DNA of 33,477 bases, from the NCBI GenBank assembly GCA_964418905.1, contig CAYQNF010000004.1, positions 1 to 33,477 on the forward strand. Direction: 5' to 3'. The stretch comes from an uncultured archaeon (GTDB taxonomy: Archaea; Aenigmatarchaeota; Aenigmatarchaeia; CAYQNF01). The position numbers and the translations under genes are program-made. The notes under the pieces were generated by a model. The model was given only the letters and a program-made list of their open reading frames with translations, was not told where the DNA came from and made no database searches. Below, piece by piece: positions 7,147 to 10,992 of the stretch; the stretch's first letter is position 1, and each line of letters opens with the position of its first letter.

Positions 7147-7272
7147 TGGCGGACCCGACGGGATTTGAACCCGCGACTTTTGGCTATCTTCTTTCACCGC
7201 ACTTCCGTGCTCAATTCTTCTATTTAGAAAATAGAAGGCCAACACTCTAAATCCAAGCTGAGTTACGGGCCC
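7147..7272 (-). tRNA. tRNA-Arg(UCU) with a roughly 46-nt canonical (37/38) intron and encoded CCA
   Basis: Reverse complement: GGGCCCG-TA-ACTC-AGCTTGGATTTA-GAGT-G-TTGGC-CTTCTA[TTTTCTAAATAGAAGAATTGAGCACGGAAGTGCGGTGAAAGAAGAT]A-GCCAA-AAGTC-GCGGG-TTCAAAT-CCCGT-CGGGTCC-G-CCA. All four stems pair. Intron AAATAGAAG pairs with the anticodon-loop segment CTTCTATTT, a typical exon-intron helix. Confidence 0.9.
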
Positions 7273-8568: not shown

Positions 8569-8598
8569 ATTTTTATTTCTAGAACACTAAATTATAAC

Positions 8599-9156
8599 AT
8601 GTTAAACAAACTAAGCGAAAAAGAGAAAGGTTATATCATAGGACTTTTCATAGGAGATGGTTACTCAAACTACCACAAGAATAGTAGACATTATAGAGTA
8701 AACTTCTATCTCAATTCAAAAAAAGACAAGGATGTAATAAACAAAATAACATATACCCTAGAAAAGATAGGACTTAATGTCTATTTCTACAAAGACAAGA
8801 GATCAAATACTGGAATAGTTAGAGTGAGCTCTAAGAATTTTATGAATACAATGGAAAATGAAGTTAATAACATAGACTCGTTGGGTGATACATCTGAGGA
8901 ATTTAAAATAGGACTGTTATCGGGATTTATAGACGCAGAAGGTTATGTAAACAACGGAGAAATCCAATTAACTCAAAAAGACAAAAATACTTTATTATTA
9001 TTCAAGAAAATAGCAGACGAGTTTGATATATCAAGAAAGTTCTGGTCTGCTAAGAACTATAAAGGTTCTGGATCAATTTGGCGCTTTAGGGTATCAACTA
9101 AGTTTAAATATCTCCCGCACAATTCTTGTAAAGTCAGGAGACAATATTCAACGTAG
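8599..9156 (+). CDS. Free-standing double-motif LAGLIDADG homing endonuclease
   Basis: 185 aa with two LAGLIDADG motifs (YIIGLFIGDGY and LLSGFIDAEGYV) about 100 aa apart. It is not embedded in an intron or intein. The stop TAG (9154-9156) overlaps the first 2 nt of the tRNA-iMet gene. Confidence 0.85.
   Translation: MLNKLSEKEKGYIIGLFIGDGYSNYHKNSRHYRVNFYLNSKKDKDVINKITYTLEKIGLNVYFYKDKRSNTGIVRVSSKNFMNTMENEVNNIDSLGDTSEEFKIGLLSGFIDAEGYVNNGEIQLTQKDKNTLLLFKKIADEFDISRKFWSAKNYKGSGSIWRFRVSTKFKYLPHNSCKVRRQYST
9103..9110 (+). promoter_or_regulatory. Consensus TATA box (TTTAAATA) for tRNA-iMet, inside the LAGLIDADG ORF
   Basis: AAGTTTAAATATC lies about 49 nt upstream of the mature tRNA 5' end. This implies a 5' leader of roughly 20-25 nt to be removed by RNase P. 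Confidence 0.4.
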
Positions 9157-9264
9157 CGGGGTGGGGCAAGGTCCGTATGTTTAATCATTGGACCCCCGAA
9201 GCCTGGAGTGCCCGCGAGGCTCATAACCTCGAGGCCAGTCGTTCAAATCGACTCCCCGCTACCA
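9155..9264 (+). tRNA. Initiator tRNA-Met(CAU) with a non-canonical intron of about 31-33 nt in the D-loop and encoded CCA
   Basis: AGCGGGG-TG-GGGC-[42-nt D-loop region AAGGTCCGTATGTTTAATCATTGGACCCCCGAAGCCTGGAGT]-GCCC-G-CGAGG-CTCATAA-CCTCG-AGGCC-AGTCG-TTCAAAT-CGACT-CCCCGCT-A-CCA. The A1:U72 pair and AGCGGGG acceptor are the archaeal initiator hallmark. The insert contains a GGTCC...GGACC hairpin. Removing about 31 nt leaves a normal AAGCCTGGAGT D-loop. Confidence 0.85.
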
Positions 9265-9371
9265 TCATTTTCTAAAAAATTAAACAAATATACACAATTT
9301 ATGGTTCAGACCAAACAAATAAACTTTTTATAAGGAATAAAATTCTAGTTTTTTGTATAGGTGAACACTAA

Positions 9372-9647
9372 ATGGCAGAACTATTATCTGGAAGTCTTGG
9401 ACTCGGTCTAGGGCTACTATTGGCATTAGTGTTTGCTAGCTATTCAAAGCTAAAAGGCTTGGATAAACAACTACATTGGGTAGCAGCTGGTGGTCTATTT
9501 TTCTTAATAGATGCAGCTCTAACTGACGGTCTAGGAACGCTTCTTCAAGGAGCAGCCGGACCTCTTTCCCAGTTGTTTACAGGTCTAGGAGCTTTATTTG
9601 TGCTTGTTGGAGCTCTTTGGGCTTCAGGTAAGCTTCTAAAGGTTTAA
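9372..9647 (+). CDS. Small Gly/Leu/Ala-rich integral membrane protein
   Basis: 91 aa with about 3 hydrophobic helices. AGGTGA lies 7 nt upstream of the ATG. A palindromic terminator follows. The gene is visibly more GC-rich than its neighbours. Confidence 0.6.
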   Translation: MAELLSGSLGLGLGLLLALVFASYSKLKGLDKQLHWVAAGGLFFLIDAALTDGLGTLLQGAAGPLSQLFTGLGALFVLVGALWASGKLLKV

Positions 9648-10137: not shown

Positions 10138-10992
10138 TTATTTAACTCTTTCAACAGCTAAATCTAGGCATACTTTCCAGACACGAGAAGCATATTGACT
10201 CATCTTTCTTCCCTCATACATTTTTATCTCATATCCAGATCTTTTAGCAGAGGAAACTACCTTTCCTACACTTTCATCAAAAAGTGTCTCTTCTGCCTCT
10301 GTATTATAAAAATTAATAACTCCTTTGTCTTTCAGGACAAGAAAGGCCTCATCTAAAAATTGGTGGGCATGGACCCCCAAAGGCATTACAACTCTATCAA
10401 ATTTATCTTCAAAATCCTCAGAAACTTCTTTAACATCGCCAAGAACGGCGCTCGCGTTATCTATCTTATTCAGTTCTATATTCTTCTTCATGTAGTCAAC
10501 TGCATCCGGATTTATCTCAATACCGGTAACACTTCCAGGATTAGAATTCTTTGATATGACTACAACATAAGGCCCGCATCCTGCAAAGAAAACGCATACA
10601 TCCTCTCCGTCCTTTATTTGCTCTGCTATTAATATCCTCTCGGTTCCTTCTCTAGGAGAGAAAAAAACTTTCTGTGGATCCAATAAGAATTTGCATCCAC
10701 TTTCTTTATGCAATACTTCAGTATCTTTTTCCCCTTTTATAATTTCATAATCTCTAAGTCTGAACTCTTCTTTTCTATCGCTCAGTTCTCTAAGAACTGT
10801 ATTAACATTCTTATGATTGCTCATTATAGCATCTGCTATAGTTTCTTTTTTCTCTTCTAATGAGTCAGGGATCTCTATTATAGCAACAGCCCCTTCTCTG
10901 CTCCCTATAACATCGTAACTAGTAATCAAATCTTCCAGTTCTTTCTTTGTCAAATCCTTTTCCAATAACTCTTTTAATGTTGCCATACTCAA
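10138..10992 (-). CDS. Class I SAM-dependent tRNA methyltransferase/aminocarboxypropyltransferase of the Trm5/Taw2 (Met-10+) family
   Basis: 284 aa. FSPREGTER, a SAM-binding FAGCGPY motif and DRVVMPL (in place of the NLP motif) occur in the Trm5/Tyw2 order. I cannot distinguish Trm5 from Taw2 by eye. Confidence 0.7.
   Translation of the reverse strand: MSMATLKELLEKDLTKKELEDLITSYDVIGSREGAVAIIEIPDSLEEKKETIADAIMSNHKNVNTVLRELSDRKEEFRLRDYEIIKGEKDTEVLHKESGCKFLLDPQKVFFSPREGTERILIAEQIKDGEDVCVFFAGCGPYVVVISKNSNPGSVTGIEINPDAVDYMKKNIELNKIDNASAVLGDVKEVSEDFEDKFDRVVMPLGVHAHQFLDEAFLVLKDKGVINFYNTEAEETLFDESVGKVVSSAKRSGYEIKMYEGRKMSQYASRVWKVCLDLAVERVK

What the first reader, a model, noticed from the sequence alone, without database searches (positions are those of the whole stretch)
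8599..9264. Initiator tRNA with a D-loop intron abuts a free-standing LAGLIDADG gene whose stop codon overlaps tRNA nt 1-2
The tRNA-iMet gene (A1:U72, AGCGGGG acceptor, CAU anticodon) carries about 31-33 extra nt inside the D-loop rather than at the canonical 37/38 site. The insert has a GGTCC/GGACC hairpin.
- The upstream double-motif LAGLIDADG ORF ends with TAG at 9154-9156, and the tRNA begins at A9155.
- RNase P processing of any read-through transcript would therefore cut inside the stop codon and leave a non-stop mRNA.
- A consensus TATA box for the tRNA (9103-9110) lies inside the endonuclease ORF.
- LAGLIDADG enzymes are normally intron- or intein-borne. This one is free-standing and wedged against an intron-bearing essential tRNA. 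That suggests a domesticated or decaying homing element that targeted this locus, or expression linked to tRNA processing.
Basis: partly seen in the sequence, partly recalled or inferred. Interest (0 to 1): 0.65.

Follow-up and report, generated by a model that had tools for sequence, protein, structure and literature searches.

The report
Homing-endonuclease cassette targeting initiator tRNA gene
The endonuclease gene touching this intron-bearing initiator tRNA belongs to a recurrent element of DPANN-type archaea: an I-DmoI-like LAGLIDADG gene always lies beside the initiator-tRNA gene, and that tRNA nearly always carries a small intron in its first 16 bases, which points to a selfish homing element and a possible route for spreading unusual archaeal tRNA introns.

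Summary
ORF 8599-9156 is an intact two-motif LAGLIDADG protein with an I-DmoI-like fold. Its TAG stop overlaps A1-G2 of a tRNA-iMet (9155-9261, then CCA). The tRNA carries a 32-nt intron (9169-9200, between positions 14 and 15) with a relaxed bulge-helix-bulge fold.

This is not a one-off. In all 38 related loci with enough flanking sequence, from several DPANN phyla, Altiarchaeota and Thermoplasmatales MAGs, a member of this protein family lies next to tRNA-iMet, while the outer neighbours seen all differ. Of these tRNAs, 35 of 38 have an intron at positions 4-16. Only 6 of 49 endonuclease-less iMet genes do (Fisher p about 2e-14, not corrected for phylogeny).

About half the loci keep an orphan copy of tRNA positions 1-12 behind a tRNA-type promoter at the ORF start. 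Two endonuclease-less alleles keep remnants of the ORF's 3' end.

Best reading: a selfish homing cassette specialised on the iMet gene. The mini-intron would interrupt the site the enzyme cuts in intron-less alleles, as in "collaborative homing". The architecture and the association are shown; cleavage, homing, splicing and transcripts are inferred. I found no published description. Verdict: a new variant of a known kind.

The parts
8570..8578 (+). TATA-like box (TTTTTATTT) 29 nt before the ORF's ATG. It is the inferred promoter of a leaderless endonuclease mRNA.
   Evidence: Sequence. The same -29 spacing of a TATA-like box to the ATG occurs in 9 relatives, with L013 at -28 and L033 at -33. 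It matches the -31 spacing of TATA to tRNA +1 in endonuclease-less iMet genes. Function is inferred.
8599..9156 (+). Gene for a single-chain LAGLIDADG endonuclease, 185 aa, I-DmoI-like.
   Evidence: ORF list. Pfam LAGLIDADG_3 at 3.4e-15. 57 homologues at 38-58% identity. Profile hit to I-DmoI at 2e-9. AF2 model pLDDT 94, and Foldseek top hits are I-DmoI at TM about 0.7.
8632..8664 (+). LAGLIDADG motif 1 (YIIGLFIGDGY). The catalytic Asp20 codon is at 8656-8658.
   Evidence: G19, D20, G21 and Y22 are invariant in 21 family members. D20 aligns with D21 of I-DmoI.
8911..8946 (+). LAGLIDADG motif 2 (GLLSGFIDAEGY). The catalytic Glu114 codon is at 8938-8940.
   Evidence: G109, I111, D112 and G115 are invariant and E114 is at least 90% conserved. 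E114 aligns with E117 of I-DmoI.
9103..9110 (+). TTTAAATA, also the codons F-K-Y. Candidate internal promoter for the tRNA, 52 nt before tRNA +1.
   Evidence: TTT-AAA is kept in most relatives, but the distance to tRNA +1 varies from 45 to 129 nt (45-72 in all but L010 and L017) and the element is lost in the GC-rich L014 and L017. In L155 the roughly 65-nt ORF remnant that survived deletion includes this box. Inconclusive.
9126..9133 (+). TTGTAAAG, also the codons C-K. A second, weaker TATA-like element, 29 nt before tRNA +1.
   Evidence: Sequence. The position matches the -31 rule for endonuclease-less iMet genes, but the box is imperfect and its spacing is not conserved in L001, L003 or L004. 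Inference only.
9154..9156 (+). Stop codon TAG, whose A and G are tRNA nucleotides 1 and 2.
   Evidence: Sequence. The same overlap occurs in 12 of 32 aligned loci. In 10 more the ORF reads into the tRNA.
9155..9168 (+). tRNA-iMet exon 1 (positions 1-14: AGCGGGGTGGGGCA).
   Evidence: Spliced alignment, BHB geometry, and ARAGORN on the spliced sequence.
9169..9200 (+). 32-nt BHB-type intron in the D-loop, between positions 14 and 15. H2 pairs 9170-9175 with 9189-9194. The central helix pairs 9164-9166 with 9195-9197. Bulges are at 9167-9169 and 9199-9201.
   Evidence: The same intron position, with different intron sequence but kept helices, is seen in L004, L009, L027, L037, L129 and L133.
9201..9261 (+). 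tRNA-iMet exon 2 (positions 15-73). The anticodon CAT is at 9222-9224 and the discriminator A at 9261.
   Evidence: Rfam tRNA model at 26.9 bits on 9200-9261. Spliced alignment.
9262..9264 (+). Genomically encoded CCA.
   Evidence: Sequence. CCA is also encoded in L001 and L004 but not in most other relatives.
9268..9271 (+). T-run after the tRNA, a candidate archaeal terminator shared by the ORF and the tRNA.
   Evidence: Sequence. T-runs follow the tRNA in most relatives, and none lies between the ORF and the tRNA. Function is inferred.

Best explanation
The ORF and the tRNA form one composite selfish element: a LAGLIDADG homing-endonuclease cassette specialised on the initiator-tRNA gene of DPANN-type archaea.

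**Shown**
- The endonuclease gene always lies directly beside tRNA-iMet, usually upstream, with its stop codon overlapping or running into the tRNA.
- The adjacent tRNA almost always carries a small BHB intron within its first 16 nt.
- In about half the loci the ORF starts at, or just after, an orphan copy of tRNA positions 1-12. That orphan sits at tRNA-promoter distance from a TATA box. So the cassette lies inside a partly duplicated tRNA gene and uses the old tRNA promoter for a leaderless mRNA.
- Endonuclease-less alleles exist that keep the intron and short remnants of the ORF.

**Inferred**
- The enzyme cuts intron-less, endonuclease-less iMet genes within roughly positions 2-23 of the tRNA gene.
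- Repair from an occupied allele copies both the ORF and the intron-bearing 5' part of the tRNA.
- The mini-intron interrupts the recognition sequence in the carrier's own essential tRNA gene and so gives immunity. This is the arrangement known from phages as collaborative (trans) homing.
- The tRNA stays functional because the splicing endonuclease removes the intron, and 5' processing removes the leader that carries the ORF.
- In the window, the endonuclease mRNA would start at the ATG (8599) and run through the tRNA to the T-run at 9268. The tRNA would mature from that transcript or from one started within the last 50 nt of the ORF.
- Processing at A9155 would remove the stop codon, so only unprocessed RNA could give a normally terminated protein.
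For: **Linkage**
- All 38 family loci with enough flanking sequence have tRNA-iMet adjacent, although the outer neighbours in the loci whose genes were listed all differ.

**The linkage is at the DNA level, not the transcript level**
- 3 loci are convergent (L009, L013, L154) and in 1 the tRNA is upstream (L026). All four still carry a 5' intron.

**Intron association**
- An intron at positions 4-16 occurs in 35 of 38 endonuclease-positive genes and in 6 of 49 endonuclease-negative genes. Fisher p = 1.7e-14.
- The introns are genuine. 45 of 47 have at least 3 of 4 central BHB pairs and 33 have all 4. The H2 helices differ in sequence but stay paired.

**The enzyme is probably active**
- Catalytic D20 and E114 are conserved.
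- The predicted fold is I-DmoI-like.
- 36 ORFs are intact and full-length; 1 is frameshifted.

**Orphan copies of the tRNA 5' end**
- They occur at the ORF start in 15 of 32 loci and all end at position 12. L027 and L037 have two each.
- A TATA box lies 29-34 nt upstream of the ORF ATG or of orphan A1 in most loci checked. In endonuclease-less iMet genes the TATA starts about 31 nt before tRNA +1 in most cases.

**Gain-and-loss signature**
- L155 keeps about 65 nt, and L095 about 12 nt, of the ORF's 3' end in front of an intron-bearing tRNA.
- L110 is frameshifted.
- The family is rare and scattered. About 9% of sampled iMet genes carry it (5 of 54). 31 representative genomes span Nanoarchaeota, Aenigmatarchaeota, Altiarchaeota and Thermoplasmatales. 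Aenigmatarchaeota appear at three places in the protein tree.
- The adjacent tRNA is of host type. The Thermoplasmatales D-loop in L019 and L020 is an example.

**Published precedent**
- The concept of collaborative homing is described in PMC3984707.
- Relaxed BHB motifs at non-canonical positions, and the broad-specificity EndA enzymes that cut them in DPANN-type (ARMAN) and Nanoarchaea, are described in PMC3488258.
Against: - No cleavage assay, no mapped target and no transcript data exist.
- I found no presence/absence polymorphism within one syntenic context. The closest flanking-gene relative is only 66% identical and not syntenic. Low-depth contigs from the same soil show no variant.
- Three endonuclease-positive tRNAs lack a 5' intron (L001, L017, L055). 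Immunity there would need another explanation. L001 has a strongly diverged 5' region.
- Introns at 4/5 would leave most of a target centred at 12/13 intact, so different subfamilies would need shifted targets.
- Almost all ORFs are intact, with about 47% mean column identity. That would also fit a host-beneficial, domesticated protein.
- The Fisher test is not corrected for phylogenetic relatedness.
- How homing would work between species whose sequence upstream of the tRNA differs is unresolved. The orphan would offer only about 12 nt of left-hand homology.
Confidence: 0.6

Rival explanations
1. Domesticated LAGLIDADG protein. The protein no longer homes. It serves the host at this locus, for example as a maturase-like cofactor for splicing or processing the unusual pre-tRNA-iMet, or as a regulator of it. 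That role would explain why it is kept next to the tRNA.
For: Almost all ORFs are intact and well conserved. The linkage to one essential tRNA is tight. In the 4/5-intron class the BHB uses the last nucleotides of the ORF, so ORF and tRNA are constrained together. LAGLIDADG maturases are known for group I introns (own knowledge; the I-AniI structure 1p8k is listed).
Against: - Both catalytic acidic residues are conserved.
- Six endonuclease-less alleles carry introns at the same positions, so the protein is not needed for splicing.
- BHB splicing by EndA needs no maturase (PMC3488258).
- The family is rare among iMet genes (5 of 54) and taxonomically scattered.
- The convergent and tRNA-upstream arrangements argue against coupling through a shared transcript.
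Confidence: 0.17
2. Giant-intron reading. In loci with an unmodified orphan (AGCGGGGTGGAG), the orphan is the real exon 1, made with a correct 5' end by transcription initiation. The ORF, the second exon-1 copy and the mini-intron are then excised together as one large BHB intron, possibly as a circular mRNA, as in archaeal rRNA introns that carry LAGLIDADG genes.
For: Orphans sit about 31-34 nt from a TATA box, the geometry of leaderless tRNA genes. The central BHB helix could form equally well with the orphan, because the sequence is the same. Archaeal rRNA BHB introns encode I-DmoI-type enzymes (own knowledge; I-DmoI and I-Tsp061I are labelled as intron-encoded).
Against: - The window, L003 and other loci have no orphan, so the copy next to the ORF stop must be the functional exon 1 there.
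- Most orphans carry an inserted T (ATGCGGGG) that would spoil A1:U72.
- Orphans end at position 12, while many mini-introns sit at 14-16, so the spliced product would be wrong.
- By inspection of L025, no H2 helix forms next to the orphan.
Confidence: 0.08
3. Expression coupling. The adjacency exists because the endonuclease mRNA and the tRNA are one transcript. tRNA 5' processing inside the stop codon would control endonuclease expression.
For: No T-run lies between the ORF and the tRNA, while one follows the tRNA. The stop overlaps or lies inside the tRNA in 22 of 32 loci. The BHB of the 4/5 class needs leader nucleotides from the ORF. This is probably true as a consequence in the common orientation.
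Against: It cannot explain the linkage itself, given the convergent and tRNA-upstream loci. It does not explain the 5' intron association. There are no RNA data.
Confidence: 0.1
4. Chance neighbour, with a tRNA pseudogene carrying junk in its D-loop.
For: ARAGORN and Rfam at gathering threshold do not call the gene.
Against: The arrangement recurs in 38 of 38 loci. The exons are intact and the acceptor stems co-vary. BHB geometry holds in 45 of 47 introns. It is the only iMet-like gene in the window.
Confidence: 0.01

Closest known systems
I-DmoI and other LAGLIDADG endonucleases encoded in archaeal rRNA BHB introns
   Same: Small single-chain, two-motif LAGLIDADG enzyme of about 190 aa. It is the best sequence and fold match. 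It is archaeal and associated with a BHB intron in a stable-RNA gene.
   Different: Here the ORF is outside the intron, beside the gene, and the host is a tRNA rather than rRNA. The intron is only 13-45 nt in most cases (up to 73) and has no ORF. Identity to I-DmoI is only about 18%.
Collaborative or trans homing in phages: free-standing F-CphI with the psbA intron, and mobE with the nrdB intron (PMC3984707, PMC2790892)
   Same: A free-standing endonuclease gene lies next to a gene that carries an ORF-less intron. [quoted passage not shown]
   Different: Those are group I self-splicing introns in phage protein-coding genes, with endonucleases of other families (mobE is HNH). Here there is a protein-spliced BHB intron in an archaeal tRNA, a LAGLIDADG enzyme, a stop codon that overlaps the tRNA, and a partial duplication of the target gene. 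Cleavage has not been tested here.
Non-canonical BHB tRNA introns of Thermoproteales, Nanoarchaea and ARMAN (PMC3488258)
   Same: Introns lie in the D-arm and acceptor stem, have relaxed hBH or HBh' motifs, and there can be several per tRNA. They need a broad-specificity EndA.
   Different: I found no published link between such introns and an endonuclease gene. Here the 5'-proximal introns co-occur with one.
Integrative elements that target tRNA genes and carry a replacement piece of the tRNA (own knowledge)
   Same: The target gene is kept functional because the element brings a copy of the displaced part. An orphan fragment is left behind.
   Different: Those elements use integrases and replace the 3' part. 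Here it is the 5' part, and the enzyme is a homing endonuclease.
tRNA punctuation with incomplete stop codons in animal mitochondria (own knowledge)
   Same: An ORF abuts a tRNA so that tRNA 5' processing would cut within or next to the stop codon.
   Different: In mitochondria polyadenylation completes the stop. No such mechanism is known here, and co-transcription has not been shown.

Membership tests
LAGLIDADG homing endonuclease (single-chain, I-DmoI type) | Two LAGLIDADG motifs, each with a catalytic Asp or Glu at its end | tested here: met
   GLFIGDGY (D20) and GFIDAEGY (E114). D20 is invariant and E114 is at least 90% conserved in 21 members. They align with D21 and E117 of I-DmoI.
LAGLIDADG homing endonuclease (single-chain, I-DmoI type) | Pseudo-dimeric alpha-beta-beta-alpha-beta-beta-alpha fold | tested here: met
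   AF2 model with pLDDT 94.4 and pTM 0.90. The top 34 PDB matches are I-DmoI, with TM 0.65-0.75 and E about 1e-9 to 1e-10. Pfam LAGLIDADG_3 scores above its cut-off.
LAGLIDADG homing endonuclease (single-chain, I-DmoI type) | Site-specific double-strand cleavage of a roughly 20-bp target | not testable with these tools
   This needs the purified protein and DNA substrates.
LAGLIDADG homing endonuclease (single-chain, I-DmoI type) | Mobility: occupied and empty alleles, degenerate copies, patchy distribution | tested here: inconclusive
   Empty iMet genes are common (49 of 54). There are two remnants (L155, L095) and one frameshifted copy (L110), and the taxonomy is scattered. No occupied/empty pair was found in the same syntenic context.
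Archaeal BHB intron | Two 3-nt bulges on opposite strands separated by a 4-bp helix, with splice sites in the bulges | tested here: inconclusive
   In the window the 5' bulge CAA is flanked by a 6-bp H2. The central helix has 3 of 4 bp and the 3' bulge is less well closed, so the motif is relaxed. Across relatives 33 of 47 introns have a perfect 4-bp helix and 45 of 47 have at least 3 of 4.
Archaeal BHB intron | Removal restores a canonical tRNA | tested here: met
   Removing 9169-9200 gives tRNA-Met(CAT) by ARAGORN, with a D-arm matching intron-less homologues apart from one compensated D-stem pair.
Archaeal BHB intron | Excision by the tRNA splicing endonuclease | not testable with these tools
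   No RNA runs hold this locus. No EndA gene was looked for beyond the window.
Archaeal initiator tRNA | CAU anticodon with an A1:U72 pair | tested here: met
   AGCGGGG pairs with CCCCGCU, and CAT is at 9222-9224.
Archaeal initiator tRNA | Three consecutive G:C pairs at the bottom of the anticodon stem (29-31:39-41) | tested here: not met
   The window has A29:U41 followed by two G:C pairs (CGAGG/CCTCG). L023, L032 and L034 have the same variant, and most relatives have all three G:C pairs. I treat it as a lineage variant. The assignment as initiator rests on A1:U72 and on homology to the other loci.
Collaborative (trans) homing system | A free-standing endonuclease gene adjacent to a gene carrying an ORF-less intron | tested here: met
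   38 of 38 loci show the adjacency, and 35 of 38 have a 5' intron.
Collaborative (trans) homing system | [quoted passage not shown] | not testable with these tools
   Inferred only, from the clustering of introns at positions 4-16 and the orphan breakpoint at 12/13.
Group I intron with endonuclease ORF (considered) | Group I ribozyme core around the ORF | tested here: not met
   No Rfam group I match in the window at gathering threshold, or in 8900-9400 at E up to 10.

The most novel reading that the evidence does not exclude
This family is the first endonuclease-driven mobility system for archaeal tRNA (BHB) introns. A LAGLIDADG enzyme attacks intron-less initiator-tRNA genes, and either drags a protective mini-intron with it or selects for one. 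The enzyme gene hijacks the tRNA's own promoter and first 12 nt to make a leaderless mRNA. If so, it would give a concrete mechanism for the gain and spread of non-canonical tRNA introns. It would also be direct evidence for the Randau-Söll idea that disrupting tRNA genes protects them from mobile elements.
Probability: 0.45. Interest if true: 0.88.

Novelty: new variant of a known kind. Interest (0 to 1): 0.8.

Why it matters
1. How archaeal tRNA introns arrive at non-canonical positions, and why they persist, is an open question. Here one class, at positions 4-16 of tRNA-iMet, is statistically tied to a nuclease gene. That makes the question testable with one protein and a few DNA substrates.
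2. It would extend collaborative homing from phage group I introns to protein-spliced archaeal introns. It would also show a new way for a selfish gene to sit harmlessly in an essential gene: partial duplication of the gene plus a mini-intron, rather than residence inside the intron.
3. In this window ARAGORN and Rfam at its gathering threshold miss the initiator tRNA, so genomes carrying such genes may be scored as lacking it.
4. The family offers small I-DmoI-like enzymes whose likely target is a highly conserved stretch of about 20 bp.

Tried and rejected
- **Exact-match DNA search in representative genomes.** A search for the tRNA's D-arm and anticodon stem found nothing.
- **Synteny route to an empty site.** The neighbouring YchF-type GTPase has no relative above 66% identity. 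The two closest contigs show no tRNA-iMet after the gene.
- **RNA evidence.** No RNA runs hold the locus.
- **Population polymorphism.** Contigs from four soil runs cover the locus thinly and show no endonuclease-less variant. One contig is a different archaeon's intron-less iMet gene.
- **Viral contigs.** Only 22-48% identity hits, none a family member.
- **Bacterial-type promoter and terminator scan.** Uninformative for an archaeon.
- **ARAGORN as a splice-site discriminator.** It accepts almost any deletion of 27-36 nt. I placed the splice sites from BHB geometry and intron-less homologues instead.
- **TTTAAATA (9103-9110) as a fixed-distance tRNA promoter.** Not supported by the spacing.
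- **Giant-intron reading for the window.** Rejected, because the window has no orphan exon.
- **Group I intron.** Rejected.
- **Literature.** Five full-text searches on the arrangement found no description of a LAGLIDADG gene linked to tRNA-iMet or to tRNA BHB introns; a sixth search only retrieved the source for the tRNA-intron protection hypothesis. The library does not cover most subscription journals.
Full report
**1. What is in the window**

The window is AT-rich, about 35% GC. Its proteins match DPANN-type archaea: Nanoarchaeia, Woesearchaeota and Aenigmarchaeota.

ORF 8599-9156 (185 aa) is a two-motif LAGLIDADG protein.
- It matches Pfam LAGLIDADG_3 at 3.4e-15.
- A profile of 21 family members hits I-DmoI, the endonuclease of an archaeal 23S rRNA intron, at 2e-9. 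Window D20 and E114 align with the catalytic D21 and E117.
- An AlphaFold model (pLDDT 94, pTM 0.90) matches I-DmoI structures at TM about 0.7.

The stop codon TAG (9154-9156) overlaps A1-G2 of a tRNA gene.

ARAGORN and Rfam at its curated threshold miss this tRNA. Rfam gives 26.9 bits, below threshold, on the 3' two-thirds. Deleting the D-loop insert gives tRNA-Met(CAT).

BHB geometry and intron-less homologues place the intron at 9169-9200 (32 nt), between tRNA positions 14 and 15.
- The 5' bulge is C-A-A.
- The central helix has 3 of the canonical 4 pairs, so the motif is relaxed.
- Relaxed motifs at non-canonical positions are cut by the (alpha-beta)2 and epsilon2 splicing endonucleases found in Nanoarchaea and ARMAN (PMC3488258; PMC5829648 abstract).

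The tRNA has A1:U72 and a CAU anticodon. Its anticodon stem has A29:U41 instead of a third G:C pair, a variant shared with L023, L032 and L034. It is the only iMet-like gene in the window.

**2. The juxtaposition is a family trait**

The protein has 57 database relatives at 38-58% identity.

In the first three contigs examined, the ORF was again followed directly by tRNA-iMet, although all outer neighbours differed.

A scan of species-representative genomes returned 31 more family loci (L007-L037; L007 is the L001 contig again). I aligned a mature iMet reference to each locus, allowing long insertions. I also inspected the exceptions and added five loci from a metagenome scan.

All 38 loci with enough flanking sequence have tRNA-iMet within about 100 nt of the ORF. 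Thirty-four have the ORF upstream on the same strand. Three are convergent, with the tRNA's 3' end facing the ORF stop (L009, L013, L154). In one the tRNA lies 29 nt upstream of the ORF (L026).

Among the 32 loci aligned, the junctions fall into these classes:

| Junction | Loci |
|---|---|
| Stop overlaps tRNA A1-G2, as in the window | 12 |
| ORF reads into the tRNA | 10 |
| Spacer of 3-31 nt | 7 |
| Spacer of 81 nt (L010) | 1 |
| Convergent | 2 |

Where the ORF reads into the tRNA, it stops in one of three places. Most stop in the first intron. Some use U8-A9-G10 or U9-G10-A11 of the tRNA itself. L012 stops just past the tRNA's 3' end.

Thirty-six ORFs are full-length and unbroken. One is frameshifted (L110) and two are cut by contig ends.

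**3. The intron is the co-varying feature**

The 47 inferred introns are bona fide. Forty-five have at least 3 of 4 central-helix pairs in canonical BHB geometry and 33 have all 4. The bulges are mostly [NG|A] and [AA|N]. 94% of the introns reach or exceed the 95th percentile of a random-position null. H2 helices differ in sequence between loci but stay paired.

Positions cluster in the first 16 nt: 4/5, 7/8, 10/11, 14/15 and 15/16. A background of canonical anticodon-loop introns is also present.

For a control I scanned metagenome contigs for the iMet D-arm and anticodon-stem sequence. Seventy-six hits are real iMet genes. Combined with the family loci, the counts are:

| iMet genes | With intron at positions 4-16 | Without |
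|---|---|---|
| Next to the endonuclease gene | 35 | 3 |
| No endonuclease gene (at least 650 nt upstream available) | 6 | 43 |

Fisher p = 1.7e-14. The test is not corrected for relatedness. Intron position partly follows the clades of the protein tree but changes between some sister loci.

The four loci in non-standard orientation also carry a 5' intron. So the intron is not there to help process a leader that contains the ORF.

The six endonuclease-less alleles with a 5' intron have it at the same positions as the occupied classes.
- L155 keeps about 65 nt of the ORF's 3' end.
- L095 keeps about 12 nt of it.

These look like endonuclease losses. They also show that the protein is not needed for splicing.

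**4. The ORF sits inside a partly duplicated tRNA gene**

In 15 of 32 loci, a copy of tRNA positions 1-12 lies at or just before the ORF start. It is either unmodified (AGCGGGGTGGAG, then A) or carries one inserted T that creates the start codon (A-T-GCGGGGTAGA, giving the N-terminus MRGR). All copies end at position 12, followed by AAAT-like sequence, whatever the position of the mini-intron. L027 and L037 have two copies each.

In endonuclease-less iMet genes, the TATA box (TTTAAAAG) starts about 31 nt before tRNA +1 in most cases. That implies transcription starting at or next to the mature 5' end.

The orphans, or the ORF's ATG, lie at about the same distance, 29-34 nt, from a TATA-like box in most loci checked. 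The window has TTTTTATTT 29 nt before the ATG but no orphan.

So the old tRNA promoter and 5' end appear to drive a leaderless endonuclease mRNA. A replacement 5' segment of the tRNA lies after the ORF.

**5. Mechanism**

*Shown:* the architecture, the linkage in any orientation, the association with a 5' intron, the conserved catalytic residues, and the orphans and remnants.

*Inferred:*
- The enzyme cuts intron-less iMet genes somewhere within positions about 2-23. All 5' introns and the orphan breakpoint fall in this stretch.
- Recombinational repair copies the ORF and the intron-bearing 5' part from an occupied allele.
- The intron breaks the target in the carrier.

This is the logic of collaborative or trans homing described for phage group I introns (PMC3984707; PMC2790892). 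It also fits the proposal that tRNA gene disruption protects against mobile elements (cited in PMC3488258).

For the window, no T-run separates the ORF from the tRNA, and one follows the tRNA. Read-through is therefore the default expectation.

In the 4/5 class, the BHB central helix (ATAG/CTAT) and the outer helix use leader nucleotides that are the ORF's last codons. The pre-tRNA there must be 5'-extended and spliced before or independently of 5' trimming.

Whether the TATA-like codons at 9103-9110 or 9126-9133 act as a tRNA promoter is open.

*Weak points:*
- No biochemical or RNA evidence exists.
- No occupied/empty pair was found in one syntenic context.
- Three occupied genes lack a 5' intron.
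- Introns at 4/5 would leave most of a target centred at 12/13 intact.
- Almost all ORFs are intact, which also fits domestication.

**6. Comparison and novelty**

The enzyme is a member of the LAGLIDADG family, closest to I-DmoI. The intron is a non-canonical BHB tRNA intron. Both kinds are known.

What appears undescribed is their fixed association with the initiator-tRNA gene, the stop codon overlapping the tRNA, the orphan exon with promoter capture, and the statistical tie between an endonuclease gene and 5'-proximal tRNA introns. Five full-text searches on the arrangement found nothing on this; a sixth only retrieved the source for the tRNA-intron protection hypothesis. A paper on archaeal group I introns reports LAGLIDADG ORFs only in rRNA introns (PMC6125680). 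No group I ribozyme is present here.

I rate it a new variant of a known kind, with interest 0.8.

Noticed in passing
window 7150-7272 (-): A second intron-bearing tRNA, Arg(UCU), with an intron of about 46-48 nt at the canonical anticodon-loop site. Rfam finds it at 48.8 bits, but ARAGORN in default mode does not. A TATA-like box starts about 36 nt upstream of its 5' end.
   Followed up: partly
L046-L165 (endonuclease-less iMet genes), for example L061, L063, L125, L142: In most DPANN-type iMet genes the TATA box (TTTAAAAG) starts about 31 nt before tRNA +1. That implies transcription starting at the mature 5' end, as described for Nanoarchaeum equitans, which lacks RNase P. It raises the question of how 5' ends are made in endonuclease-occupied genes.
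   Followed up: partly
L010, about 30-100 nt after the ORF stop: An order not seen in the other loci: ORF stop, then a TATA box, then 33 nt on an orphan AGCGAGG, then 8 nt on the real exon 1 (AGCG) with a 4/5 intron. Here the orphan and promoter lie between the ORF and the tRNA.
   Followed up: partly
L014, the 100 nt after the tRNA 3' end: Further acceptor-like fragments (TAGCGACCG, TAGCGGGGGGTCGCGAGC ... CCCCCGCTAC) follow the tRNA in this Altiarchaeota contig. They are possibly more debris from rearrangements at this site.
   Followed up: no
L155, about 90-170 nt upstream of tRNA-iMet: Sequence that looks like another tRNA gene (it carries a GGTTCGATTCC T-arm) lies just upstream of the 65-nt endonuclease remnant. 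It was identified by eye only.
   Followed up: no
L001 5182-6570 (same contig as L002 and L007): An SMC gene 1.5 kb downstream contains an intein with a LAGLIDADG_3 domain, so the genome carries other LAGLIDADG elements.
   Followed up: no
window 9200-9261, run X2 contig: The same soil sample holds a different archaeon's iMet gene with no intron (…TTCAGCGGGGTGGAGC joined directly to AGCCTGG…). It would be a potential target allele in the community.
   Followed up: no
window 10138-10992 (-) and L004 1441-2253 (-): A Trm5b/Taw2-like tRNA methyltransferase gene lies within 1-2 kb of the cassette in both the window and its closest relative L004. This may be residual synteny or coincidence.
   Followed up: no
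L021 and L017 (record titles): Family loci sit on contigs binned as 'Patescibacteria group bacterium' and 'Methanosarcinales'. The archaeal DPANN-type iMet gene on L021 suggests it was mis-binned.
   Followed up: no
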